The translations under genes were made by a program, and so were the position numbers. A stretch of DNA of 55,822 bases from a virus (Duplodnaviria > Caudoviricetes): positions 1 to 55,822 of IMG/VR virus record IMGVR_UViG_3300047095_000877. The stretch is one strand, 5' to 3'. This document shows, one piece after another, positions 8,882-48,160 of the stretch. The notes under the pieces are model-generated. The model was not told the DNA's origin, ran no database searches, and worked only from the letters and a program-made list of their open reading frames with translations. Numbering within the stretch: position 1 is the stretch's first letter; every line of letters begins with the position of its first letter.

Positions 8882-9125
8882 CTTCCGAGCACTTTGCGCT
8901 GAGCTGGTGAAACAACTGGAAGGATGGCAGTGCTATGCGAGCCCGGATGGCCCCAACGCTAAGGTGCTGGACCGCGCCCGAGCCGCCCTATCCCAGCCCG
9001 AGCCGCCAAGCTTGAAAAAGCAGGCACTTGATGCCCTAGCGCATATCGCTACTGGCCCTAATCCAACGGCATTTCTTGACTGCCAAGACACCATCCGCCG
9101 CGCACTGGAGCAGCTCGCCGAATGA
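8874..9125 (+). CDS. Hypothetical protein sharing PSLKxQAL/TIRRALE blocks
   Basis: Different N-terminus (MTDFRALCAEL), same C-terminal blocks. Confidence 0.7.
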   Translation: MTDFRALCAELVKQLEGWQCYASPDGPNAKVLDRARAALSQPEPPSLKKQALDALAHIATGPNPTAFLDCQDTIRRALEQLAE

Positions 9126-9207
9126 CCCTCTCTACCGCCCTCTACCTCGCAGGCGCCTACTGGCTGATCTGCATCGCCTTCATCTGCCTCTGCAAGAAAA
9201 TCCTGCC

Positions 9208-9938
9208 ATGACCGATCCGCTGATCGAGCACCGCTGGTACTGGGTGCGCAACAGCTCTGACAACGAATGGTTCCCGGCGTGCCGCATGAGCCAAATGTGC
9301 GGTGGCTGGTGCAACCAAGACACTTGGGAAGACTGGAACAGAGAGGTCACCGAGTGGCGCCTAATCCCCTTGCCTGACAAATCATGACCCCCGGCTTCTA
9401 CCGCATCCGCCTGACCCGACCCGATGGTGATAGCTGGGTCTGGCTGGCCTGGGCCGTCACCGCCACCAACGCCCATTGGATGGCCGCCGAGCTGCACCCC
9501 GACTGCCATGTCGAAGTGCTTGGCTTGGAGGATCAATGGTGATTCAATCCGAGCAGGGCGTCTGGAAAGGCCAGAACCATCCCTGCTATGGCGTCCATCC
9601 TGTCGACCGCGGACTGGGGCTAGCGTTCCAACCGTGGTGCTTCGATGGCGCCACTGTTACCTGGGGCCCGTCCTTCGACACACACTCGAAGGCAATGGCC
9701 CATGCACGTTTGCTTGCTGGACACGATGTTTGACTGCCACCCCAAGATCGAGCAGATGAAGGCTGAGTTCCTCGATCACCTCTATGAACAATCTGGCCGA
9801 GACAGGCTGCCCAGCGGCCACCCACTGAACTCCACTTACACCGGCCTGTGGCAGGAATTCTGCCAGCGCGGTGCCGAGGAGGCGCGGCAAGCTTGGTGGG
9901 ATGTACAGAGCATCGACCCGGAGGCGTTCGATCGATGA
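9208..9938 (+). other. Small hypothetical ORFs (9208-9387, 9536-9733, 9726-9938 and neighbours)
   Basis: Short coupled ORFs. Confidence 0.5.
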
Positions 9939-10501
9939 ACAACGACTACGACCGCGACCGGCCGCAGCAGGTGATCGGCATCTACAGCCCGGCGCCACAG
10001 TCGGGCAAAACTTTCACTGCAACGGTGCTCGTCCATAGTGGCTTCCAGCCGATCAGCTTTGCTGAGCCGCTCAAGCGCATGGCGGTGACCTTCTTAGAGG
10101 GTTTCGGCTACCGCGAGGACGAAGCGCTCAAGCTGGTCTGGGTCGATAAGCACAAGCACATCCCGGAGATCGGCTGCACGGCCCGCTGGCTACTACAAAC
10201 GATCGGCACCGAGTGGGGCCGCCAGCAGATCGCTGACGATCTGTGGATTCGCTGCTGGGAAGCACGGGTTCGACGTCATGACACCGTCGTGACAGACGAC
10301 GTGCGGTTTGCCAACGAGGCCGAAGCGGTCAAGGCGATCGGCGGGCAGATGTGGAAGATTATCCGCCCATCAGCGCAGCGCAACACCGACCACCCCTCAG
10401 AAGGTGCTCTCGACGACTGGGACGGATTTGATGTTGTCATTCAAAATGATGGCAGCCTTGAACAATTCCGTCGCAAGATCGACGCGGCCTTATGGGGATG
10501 A
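9935..10501 (+). CDS. Deoxynucleoside monophosphate kinase (T4 gp1-like)
   Basis: P-loop QSGKT, SFAEPLK, R.LLQ.IGTEWGR, DDVRFANE, H.SE. Confidence 0.9.
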   Translation: MNNDYDRDRPQQVIGIYSPAPQSGKTFTATVLVHSGFQPISFAEPLKRMAVTFLEGFGYREDEALKLVWVDKHKHIPEIGCTARWLLQTIGTEWGRQQIADDLWIRCWEARVRRHDTVVTDDVRFANEAEAVKAIGGQMWKIIRPSAQRNTDHPSEGALDDWDGFDVVIQNDGSLEQFRRKIDAALWG

Positions 10502-10830
10502 TGCGATTTCATGCCGGGCGGATGGTCCTGCATCAGCAGGGCACCGTCTGGCATGTTCGCATCAAGCTTGGTGCCAGCCCTGAGCACCAAACAAAAGCCA
10601 GTCTTGAGACCAGCAATGCCGAGGAGGCAATCTTCAGGGCTGAGCGGATCTACGCCGATCTGAAACGCAAGCTGAGCAAGCGCGTTGACGATCGACCGAT
10701 GTGCTGGCAGTGCATCCACTGGGAGGGCATTAACGCACAATGCGGATTCGGCTGGCCGGAAGCCCGCCAGACTGGTGGGAGATTCGCCGCGCAGTGCTCG
10801 GTTTTCAAGGCATGTCCGACCCGGAAGTGA
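10498..10830 (+). CDS. Hypothetical Cys-containing protein
   Basis: CWQCIHW...CGFGWPE resembles the C-terminus of 6922-7398. Confidence 0.65.
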   Translation: MMRFHAGRMVLHQQGTVWHVRIKLGASPEHQTKASLETSNAEEAIFRAERIYADLKRKLSKRVDDRPMCWQCIHWEGINAQCGFGWPEARQTGGRFAAQCSVFKACPTRK

Positions 10831-10982
10831 TCAGCCGCACCGAACGCGACGGCGGCTACATCGAGACGCTGGATCGCCCGGGTTTCGAGATCTACTACCG
10901 CAGCTGCGCCCATGGCTACTGTCGCTACTCGAGCGACATGTGGCAAGCGGAGCTGTATCTAGACCATTTGCTGGCGCGATAA
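10812..10982 (+). CDS. Hypothetical protein
   Basis: MSDPEVISRTERDGGYIETL...YRSC...CRYSSD. Confidence 0.65.
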   Translation: MSDPEVISRTERDGGYIETLDRPGFEIYYRSCAHGYCRYSSDMWQAELYLDHLLAR

Positions 10983-11018
10983 GCTGATCGGGTTCCCGCT
11001 CTGCTTCGGCATCGGGCC

Positions 11019-11089
11019 GGAAGCGTAGCCCAAGCAGAGGCAGCGGAGACAATCCGAACTCAGTGCTGGTTCAAGTCCAGCCGCTTCCC
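11019..11089 (+). ncRNA. tRNA-like RNA with non-canonical anticodon arm
   Basis: Acceptor GGAAGCG/CGCTTCC, T-arm GCTGG-TTCAAGT-CCAGC, D-stem GCC/GGC; anticodon arm CGGA-GACAA-TCCG irregular, no CCA. Confidence 0.7.
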
Positions 11090-11185
11090 TTTGGCATGAA
11101 TGTGATGGCCGGTGCCCAGGGCTCACGCGCCACAGGGCTCACCGCAGCCGGCCGCTACGGTACCGCCTAGATCCTCAGAAAAGGT

Positions 11186-11512
11186 CTAGGCCGACAAATT
11201 AGCACCACCAGCAAGCCACTGCGCGATCGCCCACTCGTTGGCGGCGGACCAGAAGGGTTGCTTGCGATACCAGTCAATCCAAGGGGACTGGCCCTTCGAG
11301 ATATTGCAGTGCCAGCATGAGCTGACCAGGTTTTCCCTGACAGTTAGGCCACCGTGCGCCTTGGGGATGACGTGATCGAGCGTCGGACTGCGGCCAAGCT
11401 GGTCCGAGCAGTATGCGCATCGGTGGTCCCAGGCCAGGTGGATCTGATCACGAAACCGCAGCCTCGCCTCCTTCCTCGTGATCAGCTCCGTCTCCGAGAT
11501 CTGATGATCCAC
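11186..11512 (-). CDS. HNH endonuclease
   Basis: CAYC..TLDHVIPKAHGG...NLVSSCWHCNISKG. Confidence 0.92.
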   Translation of the reverse strand: MDHQISETELITRKEARLRFRDQIHLAWDHRCAYCSDQLGRSPTLDHVIPKAHGGLTVRENLVSSCWHCNISKGQSPWIDWYRKQPFWSAANEWAIAQWLAGGANLSA

Positions 11513-11681
11513 CTGGCTCCTGGGGTAGGGGAAAGGCATCCAGCTCGATATCGACGATGTGCTCGTCGCTGGGGACGAACTCGACAATGCGCGCATAGGT
11601 GTTCTCGATGAACTCCTCGATGGAGTCCTCGTCGCTATGCACAACAACCTTGGCGGCCACCTCGAGCAGGTAGGTCGGCAC
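11448..11681 (-). CDS. Acidic hypothetical protein
   Basis: GTG start, VPTYLLEVAAKVVVHSDED... Confidence 0.6.
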   Translation of the reverse strand: MPTYLLEVAAKVVVHSDEDSIEEFIENTYARIVEFVPSDEHIVDIELDAFPLPQEPGGSSDLGDGADHEEGGEAAVS

Positions 11682-11759
11682 AGTGGCGCCGCGGCTTGCA
11701 CCACGGTAGCGACCGTGACGGGATGCAACGATTTCTTTGGGATCACTGCGGGTTTTGGT

Positions 11760-11833
11760 TGGTAGGCCCACTCGGAGTTGAACCGAGATTTGCGAATTAA
11801 AAGTTCGCCACTCTACCGTTGAGTTATGGGCCC
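11760..11833 (-). tRNA. tRNA-Lys (UUU) with encoded CCA
   Basis: Minus strand GGGCCCA-TA-ACTCAACGGTAGAGT-G-GCGAA-CTTTTAA-TTCGC-AAAT-CTCGG-TTCAACT-CCGAG-TGGGCCT-ACCA. Confidence 0.95.
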
Positions 11834-11840
11834 GAAAGCT

Positions 11841-12066
11841 TGCGCGAATACTGCGCGAACGTGATTTCTGCTACTGCCTAACCCCTTGTTTTCACTCACA
11901 AAAATCAGCCTGATCAACTGATTAAAAGTCTCTTTCGGAAGTCTCACGCAACTTCACGCAAACTCATTAAACATCTGATTCATCAACAAGATCCGCTATT
12001 GCGTTTTTCGGCTGATTCGCGCAATTTACCGCAAATTCGCGCAAATCTGCGCGAATAGTGCGCGAA
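11841..12066. other. Putative attP
   Basis: AT-rich gap before integrase; paired TGCGCGAA repeats at 11841/11852 and 12048/12059; candidate core 11915-11930. Confidence 0.7.
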
Positions 12067-13178
12067 TGGAGGGACGCATGAAACGTGAGTGGAAGCCCGA
12101 TTCAAAGGTCACCGGACTGGGCCTGCTGGTGCTGCCGAGCGGGGTCGAAACCTGGTACCTGCGCTACCGCGAACCGAGCGGCAAGCAGCAGCATCACAAG
12201 ATCGGTCGGGCTGACATCCTCAACCGCACACTGGCCCGCGAAGAGGCGCACAAGATCCTTGCCGCCGTGGCGCGTGGGCATGCACCCACCAGCGCCCGCC
12301 AGGAGCTGCGCCGCGGCCCTGACATGACCGATCTGTACCAGCGCCTGCTGGCCGAGCACTATCCCAAACTGCGGCCGGGCACGGCGAAGAACTACCAGAG
12401 CATCTGGGACGTTCACATCATCCCGAAACTGGGCCGCCAGAAGGTGCAGATGATCACCAGCGCCGACGTGATGCGGCTGCTCTCGCGCATCCGGCCCATC
12501 CAGGCCAACCGGACGCTGGCGGTGCTGCGCAAGGCGTTCAACCTGTCGATCCTGTGGGGCCTGCGAGCGGACAATCCTTGCGCCAAGGTGCCGGCCAACA
12601 CCGAGCGCAAGCGGCGGCGTTATCTGTCAGGCGAAGAGCGGCAGCGGCTGGTGGCCGCACTGGGCGCGATAGCCACCTCGCCACTGCGCTGGCGGTTCGC
12701 TCAACTGGTGCGACTGCTGATGCTGACGGGGTGCCGCGTGAGCGAAATCTGCCGTGCCAGATGGGAGTGGTTCGACGAGAAGGCAGGCTTGCTGGCGATT
12801 CCCGCCGAGCATCACAAAACTGGTGAGCACACTGGCCAAAAACGTGTAGTGCATATTCCTCCTGCAGGAATTCTCATCTTGAGAGAACTGAGACTCAGAT
12901 CGAATACACAATGGATTATCGCAGGGCAGGACGATGGCTATCTGGTGGGGTATCAGAACCTATGGGAAGAGCTGATGGTGCTTGCCGAAATCAAGGATCT
13001 CAAATGCCACGATTTGAGGCACCACTGGGCCTCGGTGGCGATCACCAAGGTCGGCCTGACGCTGCCGCAGGTCGGCAATCTGCTTGGTCACGCCAGCCCG
13101 CTGACCACCAGCCGCTATGCGCACCTGCTCGAGGATGGGGCGCAGGCTATGGCGAGGGCCGTGGCTGATCAGATCTAG
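12066..13178 (+). CDS. int: Tyrosine integrase with N-terminal arm-binding domain
   Basis: GL.L.V.PSG..TW arm domain; TGCRVSE, HDLRH, LLGH, RYAH catalytic motifs. Confidence 0.97.
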   Translation: MEGRMKREWKPDSKVTGLGLLVLPSGVETWYLRYREPSGKQQHHKIGRADILNRTLAREEAHKILAAVARGHAPTSARQELRRGPDMTDLYQRLLAEHYPKLRPGTAKNYQSIWDVHIIPKLGRQKVQMITSADVMRLLSRIRPIQANRTLAVLRKAFNLSILWGLRADNPCAKVPANTERKRRRYLSGEERQRLVAALGAIATSPLRWRFAQLVRLLMLTGCRVSEICRARWEWFDEKAGLLAIPAEHHKTGEHTGQKRVVHIPPAGILILRELRLRSNTQWIIAGQDDGYLVGYQNLWEELMVLAEIKDLKCHDLRHHWASVAITKVGLTLPQVGNLLGHASPLTTSRYAHLLEDGAQAMARAVADQI

Positions 13179-13477
13179 TATTCGTCGTCCTCGGCTGCCG
13201 GCCCGACCATGTAGGCCGGCTTGCCGTCTTCGCTGAGCAGTGGCTGCGCGAGCTCGTCGCAGATCATCTGGTACAGCTTTACGTACGCCATCATTTCTTT
13301 GAAATGCGCAGCGAGAGCGTCGTATTCGCTCTCGCCGACGATGCCGATCGCGTCGGGGTCTGCATAGACGAGGAACATCATGGCCGCATCCAAGATGCGA
13401 CCATCACGAAACAGCTCGTAGGCAGTCTCGAGCCCTTCCTCAAACGTGACTGTGCCGTCGCGAGAGGCGAATCTCAT
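13175..13477 (-). CDS. Hypothetical protein
   Basis: 100 aa, coupled to thyX. Confidence 0.6.
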   Translation of the reverse strand: MRFASRDGTVTFEEGLETAYELFRDGRILDAAMMFLVYADPDAIGIVGESEYDALAAHFKEMMAYVKLYQMICDELAQPLLSEDGKPAYMVGPAAEDDEY

Positions 13478-14205
13478 GGGGCCAGGCGGGCTTTGTGCAG
13501 CCTAGTGCGCTCGTACCAGGCGGCGATTTCCGGTGTCCACCGGTGGATTACTGGCCACATCAGATCGCACATGGCCTGGATCTCAGGCTGTGCATCAGCC
13601 TTGGAGCGCAGATCCATGAAGTGGAGCGCCGAGCGCAGGTTGAAGGTGACGACGAAGTTTTGGCGGAAGTCGAAGGGGATCATGCCGCGAGCGTGTTCTT
13701 CGGCCCAGCCGACCCTCAGGCGGTTCCAGTAAACCTGTGCGGCGCCGAAACACATTTCAAGGTCGGCTTCTCGTTGAGACTCCGTGTAGATGTACTTTTT
13801 ACCCTGCCTATCACGGTACTCGCCCAGCGGGCGCAAATAGAACACGTCCTCAACATCAGCTTTGCCTTCTGCCACCTTGCAAATCCGCTTGCCGGTGTAG
13901 CGCATCGACTGCACGTCAAAGCTGATACCCACGCGATGCGTGCGTGCCTGCTGCATCACCGAATGCGGAAAGCCTGCGACGCCCAGTGTGATGCTCGGGT
14001 GCTCGAGCGGGCCGTAGTGGCCGCGCTCACCGGCTAGCAGGTGCTTCACCACCAGCCGGCCAGCCTCCTGGTCTTCCGGAGCAACGCAATCAAGCACCGA
14101 GCCCTCGTAGTAGTCCTGGTGCATAGCCTGCCAGACGAGCTGCTCGGGCGCCATCGTCCAGTTGAGGGCATCGACGCGGAAACGGGAGTCAATCAGGCTT
14201 CCCAT
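13474..14205 (-). CDS. thyX: Flavin-dependent thymidylate synthase
   Basis: GHYGPLEH, QARTHRVGISFDVQSMRY, NLRSALHF, AQPEI. Confidence 0.95.
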   Translation of the reverse strand: MGSLIDSRFRVDALNWTMAPEQLVWQAMHQDYYEGSVLDCVAPEDQEAGRLVVKHLLAGERGHYGPLEHPSITLGVAGFPHSVMQQARTHRVGISFDVQSMRYTGKRICKVAEGKADVEDVFYLRPLGEYRDRQGKKYIYTESQREADLEMCFGAAQVYWNRLRVGWAEEHARGMIPFDFRQNFVVTFNLRSALHFMDLRSKADAQPEIQAMCDLMWPVIHRWTPEIAAWYERTRLHKARLAP

Positions 14206-14711
14206 GACGGCATCACGCGGGGCTGCAGGTTGTAGTGTCCTTTTTCGGCGTAGGAGATGTCCGGGATCCCTGCCGTCAGCATGAAGACCATCTGACCGAT
14301 CTTCTTGCCGGGCCACAGCTTGAGCGGCCGCAACTGCCGGGCGTTGGTGAGCTCCAGCGTCAGCTTGGAGCCGTTCCATTGCGGGTCGGCGAAGCCGGCG
14401 TGGCTGTGCTCCAGACCTTCGCGAGCGCGACTCGACTTGAGAAAGAAGAACCCTGCCACATCGTTGGGCATGTTGAACGTCTCCCAGGTCTCCGCAAGGA
14501 TCCACTGGCCGGGCTTCAGCAGGCAGGGGTTGTCCTCATCGCAGTCGCTGATGTCGACGCGGATCAGCTCATCGCTGGTGGCGCTCTCGATCATGATCTC
14601 GTTGCCCAGCAGCAGGTCGTAACTGGCCGGGTTGAGCTGGTCGAGGTCGAACGGGACGATCATCCGCTCTTCTTCGCAGAAGCGCTTGATTTCGAGGTCG
14701 TGAAGGATCAT
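14193..14711 (-). CDS. dcd: dCTP deaminase
   Basis: LNPASYDLLLG, LKSSRAREG, DP.WNG..LTLEL, IGQMVF. Confidence 0.93.
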   Translation of the reverse strand: MILHDLEIKRFCEEERMIVPFDLDQLNPASYDLLLGNEIMIESATSDELIRVDISDCDEDNPCLLKPGQWILAETWETFNMPNDVAGFFFLKSSRAREGLEHSHAGFADPQWNGSKLTLELTNARQLRPLKLWPGKKIGQMVFMLTAGIPDISYAEKGHYNLQPRVMPSWEA

Positions 14712-14777
14712 GCGGGTCGCGGGTGATGCCCCAAGATACCGGCCGCCGGGCCCGAGTCTCGATTCAGTCGCAAAACG

Positions 14778-15953
14778 TCACTTTGAGACCAGTACGGCCC
14801 AGCCAGTGCCGGGGCCTTCGATTTCCCACCGGCGCAGCCAGTTCTTGCGGCTGTAACCGATGCCGGCGCCGTTGGCGTTGAGGTAGCCGCCGTTCAGCAG
14901 ATCGCATTCGCCGTAGGGGTCGTTGTGAACGATCTGCGTCGGGTTGAAACCGATCGCCACGGTCCAGTGGCCGCCACCGGTAGGCGCTGCGGCTGTGCCA
15001 TGGTGCAGCCAGCCAACAGCGATGGGCCGGCCGGCTTGGATCTCAGCCTCGAGCTGGGCGATCGAGCACTTCTGAGTGAAACGCGCATTGAGCCCCAGCG
15101 ACTGCAGTGTCTTCACCTGCGCAATGGGCTCGGTGGTGTCGCCGTATTTCGCACGAGCAGCGTTGTACTCGTCGTCGGTTTTGACCTTGCCATAAAAGGC
15201 GGCGATCATTGCGCAGCTCGACGAGAAGCACTCGCGGTAACCCTGGCCGGACTTGTTGTCGCGCTGGCTGAAGTAGGGCACGCCGAGACGCACCGGCTCC
15301 TCCGGCATCTCGTCCATGTCCTGAAGCCAGAGATCGCCTTCGGCCTTGCGGCGGCGCTTCAGGCCGGCTTCAACGCTGGTGCCGGGATTGCGGTAGAGCA
15401 ACATCGCTGCGGGCACATCCTTCCAGCGCTTGTCGCGCAATGCACCGCTGATGGTTTTGAAGCCCTCGGTGCCGTAGAAGCCTGAGCCAAGGTTGTAGGC
15501 AAAGGAGATCAGCGCGGACTTCTGACAGTCGCCCATCTCCTTCCAGAAGGGGACGGTGGTGCCCAGCTTGGCGGCAATGCGATCGACCTCCTGGCGCAGG
15601 AGCATGTCGGCCTCGATCGCGTTGATCTTGTCGCCCTTCTGCACCTTGCGCCCGTCGTTGTAGCGGGTGGTGCCGTAGCCGATCGTGGCCACGTTCCAGC
15701 CGTGCAGCGGATCTGGGTACGCCTCGAGGTGACAGCCCTCGAATGACTTGATGATGGCAAGCGCCGGAGCCAGGTCAGCCTGCTTGCCGTCTTGGCTCCA
15801 CGTAGCAAACCACGGCCTATCGCGACGCATCGCGGCGGCGTAGCCGTTTTCGCGCAAGTCGTTCTGCAGCTCTACGACGGCCGCCGCCTGATGGGGCAGG
15901 GCTTTGTAGTAGCGGAACAGCTGCTCGAGACTGATCGGGGCGGCGTTGCTCAC
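14778..15953 (-). CDS. Endolysin: GH24 lysozyme + C39-like peptidase
   Basis: IKSFEGC..AYPD..TIGYGTT, SFAYNLG, GLKRRRKAE; VPYFSQRDN..C.SSSCAM, GHW, NDPYG. Confidence 0.92.
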   Translation of the reverse strand: MSNAAPISLEQLFRYYKALPHQAAAVVELQNDLRENGYAAAMRRDRPWFATWSQDGKQADLAPALAIIKSFEGCHLEAYPDPLHGWNVATIGYGTTRYNDGRKVQKGDKINAIEADMLLRQEVDRIAAKLGTTVPFWKEMGDCQKSALISFAYNLGSGFYGTEGFKTISGALRDKRWKDVPAAMLLYRNPGTSVEAGLKRRRKAEGDLWLQDMDEMPEEPVRLGVPYFSQRDNKSGQGYRECFSSSCAMIAAFYGKVKTDDEYNAARAKYGDTTEPIAQVKTLQSLGLNARFTQKCSIAQLEAEIQAGRPIAVGWLHHGTAAAPTGGGHWTVAIGFNPTQIVHNDPYGECDLLNGGYLNANGAGIGYSRKNWLRRWEIEGPGTGWAVLVSK

Positions 15954-17260: not shown

Positions 17261-18154
17261 TCAAAGCTCAGGGATTTCGTATTCCTGCGTGGTGTTGCAG
17301 TAATGCTTAAAGATAACTTCACTTGTGTTTCCTGCCCACGCTGCCACCTGTGGCACCGGAATTCCTGCCTCGATCCAGCGGCTGATCGCCGTGTGGCGAC
17401 AGTCGTACGGCCGATAAAGGTGGGAAATCAGTCCTGCCATGTGTAGCGGAGCAAGCTTCTTGCGAAAGTAGCTCTGAAATGCGAGGCGGTTCCACGGGAA
17501 GACGAACCTGTCCTCACGGGGCAGGTTTTGCAAGATCGCTTTGCACTTGGAGTTCAACGGAACCCACCGCTTCTTGTTGGTTTTCGTGCTTTCCTTCAGG
17601 CCGTGCGTCAGCGTGTAGTTGCGATGCACCAGCACTCGGCCGTCTTGGATGTCGTCCCAGCACATGGCCCGGACCTCGCCAGTGCGCATGGCGGTCTGCA
17701 GCATGAACTCTGCAAATAGCGACCAATCCACTTCGCGGTAGGTGAGCTTTGCAGTCAGTGCTGTGAGCACCAGCGCGATCTCGTGCCGAGGGATCACGGT
17801 GATCTCGCAGCTTTTCTGCGGCGCCTTGGGCATCCTGAAGTTGGCGACCGGGTTGCCGCTGATCAGGCCAACGTCTTCAGCGCACGCCCAGCGGTACATG
17901 CTGCGCACATACATGCACACGCGCCTAGCGGTGAGGATCGGCTTCTGCTGCAGCACCCAGATCAACACCTGCCGCCCTTGGGCAAGGTCTTGGATTGGGC
18001 AGCGCCCCATCCACTTCGTCACCTGCCGGTAGTCGCTAGTGAGGCTGGTGGGGCAGAGCGAGATGCTGCGCTCTTGCAAGAACATCGCCCACACTTCGGA
18101 AACTGTGTGAGCGCAAACGGGCGCAGCGGTCTGCGAGCGATAGGCTTCGGCCAT
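17261..18154 (-). CDS. Second tyrosine recombinase, no arm-binding domain
   Basis: TAMRTGE, KTNK, YDCRH, WAGN, KHY; ~300 aa beginning at the core-binding domain. Confidence 0.92.
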   Translation of the reverse strand: MAEAYRSQTAAPVCAHTVSEVWAMFLQERSISLCPTSLTSDYRQVTKWMGRCPIQDLAQGRQVLIWVLQQKPILTARRVCMYVRSMYRWACAEDVGLISGNPVANFRMPKAPQKSCEITVIPRHEIALVLTALTAKLTYREVDWSLFAEFMLQTAMRTGEVRAMCWDDIQDGRVLVHRNYTLTHGLKESTKTNKKRWVPLNSKCKAILQNLPREDRFVFPWNRLAFQSYFRKKLAPLHMAGLISHLYRPYDCRHTAISRWIEAGIPVPQVAAWAGNTSEVIFKHYCNTTQEYEIPEL

Positions 18155-18252
18155 CGGGTCCAATACAGCTGGATCTGATCACGGGTCAGGCGGGTGCAAC
18201 CGCGCTGGCCCACTCCATGCCTAGCACAACGCTCGCAGCGTAGATACCGCGA

Positions 18253-44983: not shown

Positions 44984-45009
44984 GGGGGCCAATCGGCCCC
45001 CTTTTTTTT
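44984..45009 (+). terminator. Intrinsic terminator
   Basis: GGGGGCC-AATC-GGCCCCC followed by T8. Confidence 0.9.
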
Positions 45010-45020
45010 GTACAAACTAG

Positions 45021-45042
45021 AAAGCCCGCCGAACTGGCGGGC
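45021..45042 (-). terminator. Intrinsic terminator for the leftward island operon
   Basis: Minus strand GCCCGCC-AGTTC-GGCGGGC-TTT. Confidence 0.7.
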
Positions 45043-45066
45043 CGGTCGATCGATCGTGCGGGCGGA

Positions 45067-46134
45067 TCACGCGGGCATCAGCTGAACGATCCCGTCGGCT
45101 AGGCGAACGATCGGCGCGTTCGGCAGGATGAATCCGGCGAGCTCGGGATCTGCGCCGCGGGATCGCTTAGCCCTCAGGATCACAGCCACGCCCGCGGGAT
45201 CCTGCCACCGGTGATCCGTAGCGTCGCCGTCGACGGTCTGCAGCGCCAGGGTCTGGCCGCCGTGGCTGATCAGCACACGGGCCGGGATCGGCGCCCCCTT
45301 AGGTAGGTCGATCGGAACGGCTAGGCGGAACCCGGCGAGGGCGGCGGCGATGGCGTCGGCGGCGGCCGTCGGGCGATCGCCGGCCAGGCTGGCGGTCACG
45401 TCCCATCCGGCGTCGCGCTGAGCGATCAGACCGAGCGGGCCGCCGGTAGGCGCTTTGCTGTATTCGTACAACTCGATCGATCCGTCGGCCGTGGCCGGTG
45501 ACAGGAGCTCGGCCAGAGTCCGGCGCTCGCCGTTCGCGATCAGCAGACCGAACCGGCGCCGGATCGCGATCGCTTCAGGCAGGCTCACAGTCAACCGCCG
45601 GACGTGCCACGGTTGATCGTCGGTGCCGCGCAGCCTGACGGCGAGGGGCAGACCGTCGGCCTGGGCGCGGGCCCATTGGCGGGCGATCGCCCAGAGCATG
45701 GCCCGGCCGTACAGGGCGGGGTCGGCGATCATTGCCAGAGTCCGGCGGCCACGGGCGGCGGCCACGGCCGGTGACAGGCCGCCGTGGCCGGCCCACGCTA
45801 GGCAGGCCGACGCACAGCCTTCTGTGGCCCACGGGCAGGCATTGAACACCGACGCGGCGGCCGTCATTCCCTCGCGATCGGCGAGGGCGGCCAGGGCGGC
45901 TAGGTGCCCGCGTGGGGCCACCGTCGACCGGTTCGCGGGATCGATCGCGGCGGCCAAGGCGCGGCCTGGCAGGCCGTGATGGATCACGGCGCGGGCGATC
46001 TCAGAGCCCTTGCCTAGTTTCGGGTTGGAATCGGTGAGCACGTCGGCCAGGGTCAGGCCGAACCGGGAGAGATGGGCGGCCACGTCGGCGGGCAGGGCGA
46101 CGCGGGCGTTCGAACGGATCAGAGCAGCAGGCAT
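45067..46134 (-). CDS. GP88-like protein with Cx6Cx3C motif
   Basis: SNPKLGK, NACPWATEGCASACL..AG.G, VRLRGTDD, YEYSK, VDGD..D.R..DP. Confidence 0.75.
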   Translation of the reverse strand: MPAALIRSNARVALPADVAAHLSRFGLTLADVLTDSNPKLGKGSEIARAVIHHGLPGRALAAAIDPANRSTVAPRGHLAALAALADREGMTAAASVFNACPWATEGCASACLAWAGHGGLSPAVAAARGRRTLAMIADPALYGRAMLWAIARQWARAQADGLPLAVRLRGTDDQPWHVRRLTVSLPEAIAIRRRFGLLIANGERRTLAELLSPATADGSIELYEYSKAPTGGPLGLIAQRDAGWDVTASLAGDRPTAAADAIAAALAGFRLAVPIDLPKGAPIPARVLISHGGQTLALQTVDGDATDHRWQDPAGVAVILRAKRSRGADPELAGFILPNAPIVRLADGIVQLMPA

Positions 46135-46153
46135 GGTGTTAGGTGCGGGGTGA

Positions 46154-46717
46154 TCAGATCAGGCGGAGAATCGCCAGCCAGGAATCGGGCGCGTCCGGCT
46201 CAACAGTTCGGCCGTCGGGCGTTTCACAGCAGGAATCCAGAGTCCAGAGATCGAGCTCGCCGTCGGTAGGCGCCGGCCAGAATTTGCCGCGCCACCAGAT
46301 CCGGCGAACGCCGCCGGCCTGATCGATCGGCAGACCGGCGCGGGCGGCGAGCTCGCAAGCGGTCTCGGTGGAATCATCGGCGGCGGGCGCCGGGGCGCGC
46401 CATGGCGCGTTGATCGACGCCACTAGGTCGGCCCATTGGCGAGCAAACGGCCAGGCGCGGGCGTCGGCCGGATCGATCAGCGCGAACCGGTGATCCCATT
46501 GGCGGGCGATCTCAGCGGCGCGCCGCTTGCTACAGAGAAGGGTCCCGGCGCTAAGGCCGGACTCCCTATGGGTGATCACCCATTGCCCCCGGCAGACCGG
46601 GAAGCGGCGGGCCGAATCGCAGGGCGGCGTGAGGGCGACCCATTGGCCCATCCAATGGGCGGGCGCCATAGCGTCGCCGGCCTTGGTGGCAACGCGGCAA
46701 AGGTGAGGGGTTGGCAT
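46154..46717 (-). CDS. Hypothetical protein
   Basis: C-terminal DSCCETPDG..VEPD...SWL; CGCACCT leader. Confidence 0.75.
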   Translation of the reverse strand: MPTPHLCRVATKAGDAMAPAHWMGQWVALTPPCDSARRFPVCRGQWVITHRESGLSAGTLLCSKRRAAEIARQWDHRFALIDPADARAWPFARQWADLVASINAPWRAPAPAADDSTETACELAARAGLPIDQAGGVRRIWWRGKFWPAPTDGELDLWTLDSCCETPDGRTVEPDAPDSWLAILRLI

Positions 46718-46747
46718 GGTGCTAGGTGCGATGGGAAGGGCGGCTGA

Positions 46748-46924
46748 TCAGTCGCGATCGCTGATCAGCCAATGGTCAGGCGATGGGGCGACATCGTGCC
46801 CAGCGGCCACGCGGGCCGCGTACGCGGCGAGAATCGCGGCGAGCTGATCGGCCGTGGCCGGATCGGACGCGGCAACCCAGCCGCCGGCGACGCGGCGCAA
46901 GGGCGGGCGATCGGGGCGGGTCAT
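46748..46924 (-). CDS. 58-aa hypothetical protein
   Basis: ATGA-coupled to upstream ORF; translated by hand. Confidence 0.5.
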   Translation of the reverse strand: MTRPDRPPLRRVAGGWVAASDPATADQLAAILAAYAARVAAGHDVAPSPDHWLISDRD

Positions 46925-47199
46925 TCAGCGGCCACGGGGTACGCGTACCGGGCGCCCGCATCAAGCGAGAGGGCGGGGCCGGCCACGGCCCACGTGACGC
47001 CCATTGCGCGGTTTGCCTTGGCCACTACGGCGGCGGCGGCCTGATCGGGGCCGTCCGCGTACGGAACGGCGGCGCGGAATCGATGGCCGGGGCCGCCGCG
47101 GTCGATCGTGGCCGCCCATTGGCTGCCGCGGCGATCAGTGGCCGGGCGGTAGCTCACCACGGCGGCGGGCACGTATCGGGCGGGATGATCCTGAGGCAT
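46921..47199 (-). CDS. Hypothetical protein
   Basis: V.Y.PATD.RGSQW.A motif; CGCACCT leader. Confidence 0.75.
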   Translation of the reverse strand: MPQDHPARYVPAAVVSYRPATDRRGSQWAATIDRGGPGHRFRAAVPYADGPDQAAAAVVAKANRAMGVTWAVAGPALSLDAGARYAYPVAAE

Positions 47200-47231
47200 G
47201 GTGCTAGGTGCGATGGGATAGGACGCGGCGA

Positions 47232-47405
47232 TCAACGCCGGTAGCAGTGCTCAGTGGTGATACGGGCGAGGCGCGCCTCGTCTCGGCATGCCTGCAGGGC
47301 GAGGGCATCATTGATGCCTACGGTCGTAACGACAGCGAGGGCACAGGATCCGAACGCCAGACCGGCGGCGAGGGCGGCGGCGGCGGCGCGGTTCAGAAGA
47401 GACAT
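47232..47405 (-). CDS. Small membrane/secreted protein
   Basis: Hydrophobic N-terminus; CGCACCT leader. Confidence 0.65.
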   Translation of the reverse strand: MSLLNRAAAAALAAGLAFGSCALAVVTTVGINDALALQACRDEARLARITTEHCYRR

Positions 47406-47500
47406 GGTGATAGGTGCGATGGGACGACCTTTCGGCCGTTGACGGAATTCTGCCGACGCGCCCGACCCCATCAGGGGGCGGGCGGCCGGTTCGCCGATTG

Positions 47501-47842
47501 TCACGCGGCGAGGGCGGCGATCAGATCGGCCCGGCGGCCGTACGTATACAGGCGACGCGGCAGACCGGCGGCGCGGGCGGCGGCGCGCAGTTCGGCCACG
47601 GTCTGACGGGCGGCGGGCGCGGCGGGCGCGGGCCGGTCGATTCGATCGGCGAGGGCGCGCAGGGCGGCGGCGGCGATCGGGGCCAGGTGAACGGCGAGGG
47701 CGTGGGTCACCGCGGCCACGGTCAGGGCGAGGGCGAGGGCGCGGGCGGCGGCCGCTTGCCAGTCGATCGCGCTAAGGGCGGCGATCGCATCATCAATGGG
47801 AGGGAAGGCGGGCGCCTGGGCGCGGGCAATTGCAAGGGTCAT
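47501..47842 (-). CDS. Membrane protein with C-terminal Rho-N/SAP-like helix-extension-helix
   Basis: TVAELRAAARAAGL.....RRADLIAAL; CGCACCT leader. Confidence 0.7.
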   Translation of the reverse strand: MTLAIARAQAPAFPPIDDAIAALSAIDWQAAAARALALALTVAAVTHALAVHLAPIAAAALRALADRIDRPAPAAPAARQTVAELRAAARAAGLPRRLYTYGRRADLIAALAA

Positions 47843-48160
47843 GAGACTAGGTGCGATGGGAAACGCGGTTCGCGTTCGATATCCATGATGCCGACGGGTC
47901 GGCCCGGATCCCATAGCGTGGGGCCGGTTCGCGGATTGGCCTAGTTGCCATCGGCGCGGCGCCCCTTGCGACCGTGCCAGAGCACCTAGGTAACGGGCCG
48001 GCCTGGCCGCCCCATATATAAGGTCAGCGCCGATCGAACCGCGGCGCACCGGACGCGGCACCCGTCAGCTGATCACACAACGACATCGTTATAGTGTTTT
48101 GCCGTTATAGCGGCTGATCTTATAACGGCATCGTTATACTGTTTTGCTGTTGGCTGATCG

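What the first reader, a model, noticed from the sequence alone, without database searches (positions are those of the whole stretch)
11760..12066. attP core resembles a tRNA-Lys anticodon arm; an adjacent complete tRNA-Lys may replace the disrupted host gene
Seen: between paired TGCGCGAA arm-like repeats, the minus strand of 11915-11930 reads GACTTTTAATCAGTTG, a Lys(UUU) loop CTTTTAA plus a 3' stem. No T-arm or acceptor follows. An intact, sequence-different tRNA-Lys(UUU) lies 80 bp away in the same orientation. Known: tRNA-targeting integrases often cross over in the anticodon loop and normally carry the 3' half of the gene to rebuild it. Inference: this phage breaks the host tRNA-Lys and complements it with its own copy, which could make the prophage hard to lose imprecisely.
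Basis: partly seen in the sequence, partly recalled or inferred. Interest (0 to 1): 0.72.

Follow-up and report, generated by a model that had tools for sequence, protein, structure and literature searches.

The report
Phage tRNA replaces broken host tRNA
A lake-water phage carries an integration site that would cut a host lysine tRNA gene without rebuilding it, and right next to that site a complete lysine tRNA gene of its own that most likely takes over; this trick was shown in mycobacterial phages in 2024, and here it appears in a very different phage group.

Summary
Window 11841-12066 is a lambda-type attP. It has paired arm-type sites (TGCGCGAA) on both sides and a core at 11917-11930 that is a tRNA-Lys(UUU) anticodon loop plus 3' stem, with no T arm or acceptor. 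It lies directly upstream of an arm-binding tyrosine integrase. A complete tRNA-Lys(UUU) gene sits 7 nt outside the P arm, co-oriented with the core.

The main evidence is comparative. I found 66 distinct real attP sites of this integrase family. In 50 of them the same position holds a full tRNA 3' half (Lys, fMet, Phe, Asn, Thr, Gly, Arg), and none of those has an adjacent tRNA gene. The other 16 have a truncated core, and all 16 carry a complete cognate tRNA gene next to the P arm (15 Lys, 1 fMet).

A collinear sister phage with a 95% identical integrase rebuilds the tRNA and has no tRNA gene. Its similarity to the window resumes exactly at the core.

This matches "tRNA-dependent lysogeny" (Guerrero-Bustamante and Hatfull 2024), so it is a new member of a known kind, in a probable freshwater cyanosiphovirus. 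No attB, attL or attR was seen, and the host was not identified.

The parts
11760..11833 (-). Complete phage tRNA-Lys(UUU) gene with encoded CCA. It lies 7 nt outside the P arm, co-oriented with the core's tRNA fragment and downstream of it.
   Evidence: ARAGORN; Rfam RF00005 68.3 bits, model positions 1-71; cloverleaf fold, z = -3.55. Across 15 distinct homologues, 13 of 21 predicted pairs show compensatory changes.
11841..11859 (+). P arm: two direct arm-type sites, TGCGCGAA-TAC-TGCGCGAA.
   Evidence: Conserved in all 8 aligned relatives and used to recover 111 loci.
11860..11916 (.). P-side spacer. It stands in place of the tRNA T arm, acceptor and downstream spacer that the tRNA-rebuilding relatives have, and is 43 bp shorter.
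   Evidence: Arm spacing is 207 in the window against 250/251 in rebuilding relatives. There is no T stem or CCA. Similarity to sister phage L002 is absent here.
11917..11930 (-). Core. On the minus strand it reads GACTTTTAATCAGT: two stem bases, the 7-nt tRNA-Lys(UUU) anticodon loop (11922-11928) and the 5-nt 3' stem. This is the predicted common core and crossover region.
   Evidence: It is identical to the start of the tRNA-Lys 3' half in sister attPs. It lies at a fixed distance from the P' arm in 64 of the 66 attPs. The similarity block to L002 starts at 11917.
11931..12047 (.). P' side. It holds the conserved TCTCACGnAACTTCACG block (11940-11956) and two inverted arm-type sites, TTCGCGCA (12016-12023 and 12036-12043).
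12048..12066 (+). P' arm: two direct arm-type sites, TGCGCGAA-TAG-TGCGCGAA. It abuts the integrase ribosome-binding site.
12066..13178 (+). Tyrosine integrase with an N-terminal arm-DNA-binding domain. The real start is probably the ATG at 12078, after GGAGG.
   Evidence: Pfam hits: Arm-DNA-bind_3 4.9e-12, Phage_int_SAM_3, Phage_integrase 3.2e-16. In the translation the motifs GCRVSE, HDLRH, LGH and RYAH are present; the motif names are recalled.

Best explanation
Window 11841-12066 is the attP of the adjacent heterobivalent tyrosine integrase, and its target is the anticodon loop of a host tRNA-Lys(UUU) gene. The attP shares only about 9-14 bp with that gene (GA-CTTTTAA-TCAGT) and lacks the T arm and acceptor, so integration would leave two dead tRNA halves at attL and attR.

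The complete phage tRNA-Lys(UUU) gene sits 7 nt outside the P arm. It would supply the lost function, making the prophage's tRNA necessary for the lysogen. This is 'tRNA-dependent lysogeny'.

After integration the phage tRNA would lie about 130-140 nt downstream of the host tRNA's 5' half, in the same orientation. It could therefore be transcribed from the host tRNA promoter.

Shown here: the attP anatomy, the homology to tRNA-rebuilding attPs, the strict association between a truncated core and a cognate tRNA gene, and selection on the tRNA's structure.

Inferred: the identity of attB, the fact of integration, the essentiality of the host tRNA, the source of transcription, and the host (probably a freshwater picocyanobacterium).
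For: 1. Integrase and arms. The integrase has Arm-DNA-bind_3, SAM-like and catalytic domains. Six of the window's 8 TGCGCGAA sites flank the core.

2. Sister phage. L002 has a 95% identical integrase, a 55,939-bp record rated 100% complete, and is collinear with the window. It has no tRNA gene (0 RF00005 matches). At the same core it carries a full tRNA-Lys 3' half ending in ACCA.

3. Census. I examined 129 loci: the window, 7, 111 and 10. Of these, 95 have both arms and give 67 distinct inter-arm sequences, one of which is a tandem-repeat false hit. Fifty attPs hold a tRNA 3' half: 12 Lys, 16 fMet/CAU, 14 Phe, 1 Asn, 2 Thr, and 5 in the opposite orientation (Gly, Arg, Thr). None of the 50 has a tRNA gene beside the P arm. 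Sixteen have a truncated core (15 Lys, 1 fMet), and 16 of 16 have a complete cognate tRNA gene ending 3-9 nt from the P arm, in the same orientation.

4. Whole-record control. Zero of 5 rebuilding-type phage records, 4 of them at least 91% complete, hold any tRNA.

5. Integrase tree. It used 51 of the 67 attPs, those with a full-length integrase, and is IQ-TREE's quick search. The tRNA-dependent state needs at least 4 changes. It appears in the window's clade, in L091's clade and in the fMet clade (L074).

6. Crossover footprint. Similarity between the window and L002 stops at 11755, just 3' of the tRNA, and resumes at 11917, the first base of the core. This is what Int-mediated exchange at the core would leave.

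7. Selection on the tRNA. The 15 distinct phage tRNA-Lys genes keep the cloverleaf, with compensatory changes in 13 of 21 pairs.

8. Precedent. PMC10865867 shows by experiment that integrases with arm-type sites and 8-17-bp cores in tRNA-Lys-TTT disrupt the gene and need a phage tRNA-Lys. It also shows that sister phages which rebuild the tRNA lack one (sections 5, 6, 9, 10).

9. Transcription signals. No terminator-like or sigma-70-like site lies in 11100-12200. This is compatible with read-through from a host promoter but is weak evidence.
Against: - No attB, attL or attR was seen. Every attP-like locus among the 129 examined is the phage (attP) form or a deletion derivative.
- A pattern for the predicted attL found 0 metagenome contigs.
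- All 10 of 10 metagenome hits to the core-plus-P' pattern are attP.
- The host genome and its tRNA-Lys sequence and copy number were never accessed. The predicted 14-bp core rests on the tRNA half carried by sister phages.
- Four of the 15 truncated Lys cores have another 3' stem (TCGTT), and two others have TCGCT or TCGTC. No rebuilding counterpart with those stems was found, so their shared core may be only 9 bp.
- No repressor or excisionase was recognised. Nine small neighbouring ORFs gave 0 Pfam families, and 7 of 10 ORFs gave 0 PHROGs families.
- Many relatives have lost the integrase module, so lysogeny may be rare.
- The census rows are related sequences, not independent events, and the tree is the quick version.
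Confidence: 0.78

Rival explanations
1. The tRNA-Lys is an ordinary phage tRNA, serving codon supply or acting as a decoy against anticodon nucleases that cut tRNA-Lys. The truncated core would be a decayed or little-used attP, and the two features would be unrelated. Alternatively the host has spare tRNA-Lys genes, so nothing needs replacing.
For: - No integrated form was seen.
- Relatives often lose the integrase module.
- The discussion of PMC10865867 (section 11) notes that phage tRNA-Lys could also counter tRNA-degrading defences.
- The window's tRNA has an anticodon stem unlike the inferred host one.
Against: - 16 of 16 truncated cores have a cognate tRNA glued to the P arm, against 0 of 50 rebuilding attPs. 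The tRNA's isotype follows the core: Lys with Lys, fMet with fMet.
- It is the only ARAGORN-called tRNA in the genome.
- The integrase is intact, and the arms and core spacing are conserved.
- An anti-defence role could still coexist with replacement.
Confidence: 0.13
2. The crossover takes place inside the complete phage tRNA-Lys gene, so the full gene would be the real core. Integration would then rebuild a hybrid host-phage tRNA, and the 16-mer between the arms would be a relic.
For: The phage tRNA shares ACTTTTAAT with the core (family D5). PMC10865867 section 9 speculates that a plasmid-borne phage tRNA can act as a secondary attB.
Against: - The tRNA lies outside the arm pair. Its anticodon loop is about 250 nt from the P' arm, whereas in 64 of 66 attPs the loop lies 126 nt before P' and in the other two is shifted by 1 nt.
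- The mosaic boundary with L002 falls at 11917, not in the tRNA gene.
- The stems of the phage tRNA differ from the tRNA halves of sister attPs.
Confidence: 0.04
3. The resemblance is chance, and the intergenic region is only the promoter and regulatory region of the integrase gene.
For: The total count of TGCGCGAA in the window is not unusual: 8 against 4.94 expected, with 12 of 100 shuffles reaching 8.
Against: The sites are clustered, with 6 of 8 in 226 bp. The same layout holds bona fide tRNA 3' halves of seven isotypes at the same position in 50 distinct relatives.
Confidence: 0.02

Closest known systems
tRNA-dependent lysogeny of actinobacteriophages (Fionnbharth K4, Cain K6, cluster L, Gaia; Guerrero-Bustamante and Hatfull, mBio 2024, PMC10865867)
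   Same: - A tyrosine integrase with an arm-binding domain and paired arm-type sites around the core.
- The target is tRNA-Lys-TTT, with a CAT isotype also used.
- The core is too short (8-17 bp there, 9-14 bp predicted here) to rebuild the tRNA.
- The phage encodes the cognate tRNA.
- Close relatives that rebuild the tRNA have no phage tRNA.
- The state arose several times in the integrase tree.
   Different: - There the function was proven by experiment and attB is known. Here everything about the host side is inferred.
- There the tRNA lies elsewhere in the genome: in Fionnbharth it overlaps gene 37 and has its own strong promoter, and in cluster L it sits in or near tRNA clusters (sections 6, 9). 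Here, in 16 of 16 attPs, it is fused to the P arm, co-oriented and downstream of the core, and travels with attP-int as one module.
- The phage lineage and habitat differ: a lake-water siphovirus whose capsid is nearest to Synechococcus siphoviruses.
Canonical tRNA-rebuilding attP sites with the crossover in the anticodon loop (sister phage L002 and 49 other attPs of this family; Boilgate and Ximenita in PMC10865867)
   Same: The same integrase family, the same arm sites, and the same core position and P' side. The L002 integrase is 95% identical to the window's.
   Different: The window lacks the 43-bp-longer P side that holds the T arm, acceptor and CCA, and instead has a whole tRNA gene outside the P arm.
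Prophage Lj965 of Lactobacillus johnsonii, and Mesorhizobium-phage-like prophages of Sinorhizobium meliloti
   Same: Both are cited as prophages that fail to rebuild the tRNA at a junction and encode a cognate tRNA. Lj965 is mentioned in PMC10865867 section 11. The Mesorhizobium-phage-like prophages are mentioned in a passage of the PMC12429752 discussion seen. I saw only those passages.
   Different: Different hosts. I did not read the primary descriptions, so I cannot compare the anatomy.
Cyanosiphoviruses S-LBS1, S-CBS3 and S-CBS1
   Same: They give the nearest major capsid proteins (53%, 49% and 49% identity). S-LBS1 is a freshwater phage with 60.2% G+C and an integrase (PMC6157547, passages seen).
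   Different: No Synechococcus phage is among the 15 best rows for the window's integrase; the best are Ralstonia phages at 36%. The S-LBS1 paper proposes other att motifs and no tRNA target.

Membership tests
tRNA-dependent lysogeny (PMC10865867) | A tyrosine integrase of the lambda type, with an arm-binding domain and arm-type sites flanking the attP core | tested here: met
   Pfam Arm-DNA-bind_3 plus Phage_integrase; paired TGCGCGAA sites on both sides of the core.
tRNA-dependent lysogeny (PMC10865867) | attB overlaps a host tRNA gene | tested here: inconclusive
   No host genome could be reached. The target is inferred from 12 distinct sister attPs that carry a tRNA-Lys 3' half at the same core.
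tRNA-dependent lysogeny (PMC10865867) | The common core is too short for a functional tRNA to be rebuilt at attL or attR | tested here: met
   On the attP side, no T stem (1 of 5 pairs) and no CCA follow the core. The block identical to the sister tRNA half is 14 nt.
tRNA-dependent lysogeny (PMC10865867) | [quoted passage not shown] | tested here: met
   tRNA-Lys(UUU) at 11760-11833. The same holds in 16 of 16 truncated-core attPs. The structure is kept by compensatory changes.
tRNA-dependent lysogeny (PMC10865867) | The phage tRNA is required for viable lysogens, because the host tRNA is essential or single-copy | not testable with these tools
   This needs the host genome and genetics.
tRNA-dependent lysogeny (PMC10865867) | Integration at the tRNA is demonstrated by attL and attR junctions | tested here: not met
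   No junction was found: 0 hits for the attL pattern, 10 of 10 attP for the core-plus-P' pattern, and no junction among the 111 IMG/VR loci. Absence from assemblies does not show that integration does not occur.
Heterobivalent tyrosine integrases that target the tRNA anticodon loop (class as I recall it from Williams 2002; not read here) | The attP carries the tRNA from the anticodon loop to the 3' end, so that the gene is restored | tested here: not met
   Met by 50 relatives but not by the window. The window is a derived variant of this class.

The most novel reading that the evidence does not exclude
The tRNA, attP and integrase form one portable 'cut-and-replace' cassette, and the replacement tRNA has no promoter of its own. 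It would be silent in the free phage and switched on only by integration, which places it about 130-140 nt downstream of the captured host tRNA-Lys promoter. Phages would flip between the 'rebuild' and 'replace' modes through Int-mediated exchange at the core; the window/L002 mosaic boundary at 11917 would be the footprint of such an exchange. If the hosts are freshwater picocyanobacteria, this would also be a concrete, testable lysogeny module for a group in which inducible prophages have hardly been found.
Probability: 0.3. Interest if true: 0.7.

Novelty: new member of a known kind. Interest (0 to 1): 0.55.

Why it matters
It extends tRNA-dependent lysogeny from actinobacteriophages to an abundant lake-water phage lineage. 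At least half of the sampled words of a 6-kb stretch (window 9000-15000) are held by 17 lake-water metagenome runs.

It also offers a natural experiment. Within one integrase family, 50 rebuilding and 16 replacing attPs coexist, including a near-isogenic pair (the window and L002).

The fixed position of the tRNA against the P arm suggests a simpler, self-contained module than in mycobacteriophages. That is of interest for integration vectors and for how a prophage makes itself indispensable.

If the host is a picocyanobacterium, the predicted attL and attR junctions give a direct PCR test for lysogeny in lakes.

Tried and rejected
- Integrase search in species genomes: only a 29%-identical Acidobacteriota hit (L009).
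No cyanobacterial genome could be reached.
- Scan of viral contigs with 28 nt of the L002 tRNA half: 27 loci. Seven hold complete tRNA-Lys genes (in tRNA arrays or high-G+C contigs) that share the loop, 3' stem and T arm and show the 5' stem ACTGA, but none has the acceptor stem of the sister half. Eleven are attPs of another phage group with different arm repeats. The host is not identified by this.
- blastn of the tRNA half against isolated phages: only generic tRNA similarity, 79-89% in the 40 rows listed.
- Predicted attL pattern in metagenome contigs: 0 hits. Core-plus-P' pattern: 10 hits, all attP.
- Laying Logan contigs of 4 lake runs on 11300-12700: in 3 runs one contig bridges the whole attP. 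In the fourth the break is at 11717-11734, not at the core. There are no loose ends at the core. Contigs drop rare variants, so this shows only that the attP form is present.
- Promoter and terminator scan of 11100-12200: nothing found. It is a weak tool for this organism.
- Pfam and PHROGs on small ORFs for a repressor or excisionase: nothing found.
- A T-arm regular expression misclassified five attPs (L003, L004, L040, L111, L150). It was replaced by the position-based test.
- The 'careful' tree did not finish in 288 s, so the quick tree is reported.
- Literature searches for the mechanism in cyanophages (titles and abstract starts seen) found none. Supplements were not consulted.

Full report
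**What the window is.** It is a complete IMG/VR virus record of 55,822 bp, rated 100% complete by CheckV, with about 60% G+C. Its genes include:
- large terminase, portal, a protease-capsid fusion, tape measure and tail fibres;
- lysozyme, ThyX, a dNMP kinase and an HNH endonuclease;
- RecE/RecT-like proteins, helicase and primase.

It is therefore a siphovirus-type phage. Its capsid protein is nearest to those of Synechococcus siphoviruses S-LBS1 (53%), S-CBS3 and S-CBS1 (49%). At least half of the sampled words of a 6-kb stretch (window 9000-15000) are held by 17 lake-water metagenome runs. A freshwater picocyanobacterial host is probable (my estimate is about 60%) but not shown.

**The observation.**
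- The minus strand of 11915-11930 reads the stated 16-mer. Its first 11 bases occur once in the window.
- Six of the window's eight TGCGCGAA octamers lie in 11841-12066. They form two direct pairs (11841/11852 and 12048/12059) and two inverted copies (12016, 12036).
- A complete tRNA-Lys(UUU) lies at 11760-11833 on the minus strand (68.3 bits; cloverleaf). It is 81 nt from the 16-mer and co-oriented with it.
- The gene that follows the repeats (12066 or 12078 to 13178) is a tyrosine integrase with an arm-DNA-binding domain and an intact-looking catalytic region.

**What the comparison shows.** A protein scan found seven viral contigs with integrases 79-97% identical to the window's. Six have the same layout as the window. 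The seventh, L002, has a 95% identical integrase and a 55,939-bp record. It has no tRNA gene. Between the same arm sites and joined to the same core, it carries a complete tRNA-Lys 3' half: variable loop, T arm, acceptor and ACCA.

I then scanned viral contigs for the double arm motif, which gave 111 loci, and metagenome contigs for the core plus the P' arm, which gave 10 loci.
- Of the 129 loci examined in all, 95 have both arms (up to 2 mismatches each). They give 67 distinct inter-arm sequences, one of which is a tandem-repeat false hit.
- In the 61 minus-oriented attPs a tRNA anticodon loop sits 126 nt before the P' arm. It is shifted by one base in three of them.
- Fifty attPs continue into a T stem with 5 of 5 pairs (4 of 5 in one opposite-orientation attP), which in the 45 minus-oriented ones ends in CCA: 12 Lys, 16 CAU (with an initiator-type acceptor end), 14 Phe, 1 Asn, 2 Thr, and 5 in the opposite orientation (Gly, Arg, Thr).
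- None of those 50 has a tRNA gene next to the P arm. Five whole rebuilding-type records, four of them at least 91% complete, have no tRNA at all.
- Sixteen attPs stop after the anticodon 3' stem. Their arm spacing is 207-209 instead of 239-251. All 16 have a complete cognate tRNA gene ending 3-9 nt from the P arm, in the same orientation: 15 tRNA-Lys(UUU) and one tRNA-Met(CAU) with an initiator-type acceptor (L074).
- The isotype of the extra gene therefore follows the isotype of the truncated core.

**Independence.** The rows are related, so the 16/0 against 0/50 split is not a probability. A quick maximum-likelihood tree was built from the 51 attPs with full-length integrases. On it the truncated-core state needs at least four changes: the window's clade (with L002 nested inside as a reversal), L091 in another Lys clade, and L074 inside the fMet clade. 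Left neighbours also differ. It is an HNH gene on the minus strand in the window and a plus-strand gene ending in a CxxC...CxxC-type motif in L146-L148. So the tRNA travels with attP-int rather than with the backbone.

**A footprint of recombination at the core.** The window and L002's contig are collinear over more than 13 kb at 73-91% identity. [quoted passage not shown] It resumes at 11917, the first base of the core on the plus strand. The exchanged block is exactly 'everything on the P side of the crossover point', which is what recombination at the core between two attP or prophage junction sites would produce.

**The phage tRNA is kept functional.** The 15 distinct tRNA-Lys genes fall into at least two sequence classes. 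All keep all four stems, and 13 of 21 predicted pairs show double, compensatory changes.

**How it most likely works.** The integrase binds the arm sites through its N-terminal domain and the core through its catalytic domains, and recombines the core with the anticodon loop of a host tRNA-Lys(UUU) gene. Against the tRNA half carried by the sister phages, the window shares GA-CTTTTAA-TCAGT (14 bp) and then only scattered bases. The junction on the host 5' side would therefore run into phage spacer, and the host 3' half would be left behind the integrase gene. Neither would be a tRNA. The phage tRNA-Lys, now about 130-140 nt downstream of the host's 5' half and in the same direction, would supply tRNA-Lys(UUU). 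No terminator-like or sigma-70-like site was found between them (weak evidence). Transcription from the host tRNA promoter is therefore possible, but it is my inference.

**What is known.** This is the mechanism published as 'tRNA-dependent lysogeny' (PMC10865867; I read the abstract and sections 5, 6, 9, 10 and 11).
- Tyrosine integrases with arm-type sites, and cores of 8-17 bp in tRNA-Lys-TTT (also Ile2-CAT and Leu-CAA), leave the host tRNA unreconstructed.
- A phage tRNA of the same isotype is required for viable integration.
- Sister phages (Boilgate, Ximenita, Omega) rebuild the tRNA and lack the phage gene.
- The authors expected it outside Actinobacteria and cited Lj965.
- A later paper mentions Mesorhizobium-phage-like prophages (PMC12429752, passage seen).
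- My searches found no report in cyanophages or lake phages (listings only).

The differences here are the phage lineage and the architecture. In Fionnbharth the tRNA lies elsewhere with its own strong promoter. Here it is welded to the P arm in 16 of 16 attPs.

**What is missing.**
- I saw no attB, attL or attR. There is no junction among the 129 loci.
- The predicted attL pattern gave 0 hits.
- Contigs of four lake runs bridge the attP without a branch at the core.
The host's tRNA-Lys sequence and copy number therefore remain unknown.
- No repressor or excisionase was recognised.
- Eleven relatives have lost the core and integrase while keeping the P arm, and four others carry only an integrase fragment beside it.

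**Verdict.** It is filed as a new member of a known kind. It has an unusually clean natural control set and a cassette-like architecture that suggests promoter capture, which is untested.

Noticed in passing
window 11019-11089 (+): A second tRNA-like element. Rfam tRNA scores 33.5 bits (cut-off 29) with a shortened anticodon loop. ARAGORN misses it in the window, but at the homologous place it calls 'tRNA-Cys(aca)' in L141 and 'tRNA-Leu(caa)' in L142. Sister phage L002 has no tRNA match at all.
   Followed up: partly
window 17261-18163 (-): A second tyrosine recombinase of 300 aa. It matches Phage_integrase at 1.6e-12 and phrog_1, and has no arm-binding domain. Its role is unknown; dimer resolution or a second integration system are possibilities.
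   Followed up: no
L024, L050, L068, L080, L089, L092, L093, L098, L107, L113, L120; also L033, L034, L102, L112: Relatives that keep the P arm but have lost the core, the P' arm and the integrase. In most of them the arm is followed by a terminator-like hairpin and another gene. Four others carry only an integrase fragment. These look like deletion derivatives that can no longer integrate.
   Followed up: partly
L126, L127, L129-L133, L136-L139: Another group of viral contigs carries the very same tRNA-Lys 3' half, acceptor included, ending at the anticodon loop. It is flanked by quite different repeats (such as ACCTTACCC and GGCACCC). This looks like a second, unrelated attP type aimed at the same tRNA-Lys.
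   Followed up: no
L040, L150, L111 (attP inter-arm): Three tRNA-rebuilding attPs carry tRNA-Lys 3' halves with odd T loops (ATCGTAC, GTCAGAA) in place of TTCGA-type loops. The T stems are fully paired and ACCA is present. Whether the rebuilt tRNA would work is open.
   Followed up: no
L049, L051, L038/L076, L065, L063: Five attPs of the family hold the tRNA segment in the opposite orientation, with the 3' end towards the integrase (Gly-CCC, Arg-UCU, Thr-UGU). In L049 and L038, ARAGORN calls a whole tRNA between the arms, with a poor D arm, as if a decaying 5' half were still present.
   Followed up: partly
window 45001-48000: G+C rises to 0.70-0.72 against about 0.60 elsewhere. The stretch covers ORFs 45067-46134(-), 46154-46717(-) and neighbours, which I did not annotate.
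   Followed up: no
window 11760-11833 versus L141, L142, L145: The three phages whose integrases are nearest to the window's (up to 99% identical, L142) carry a different tRNA-Lys allele. The window's allele is shared with L006, whose integrase is 83% identical. The tRNA gene is therefore shuffled among close relatives.
   Followed up: partly
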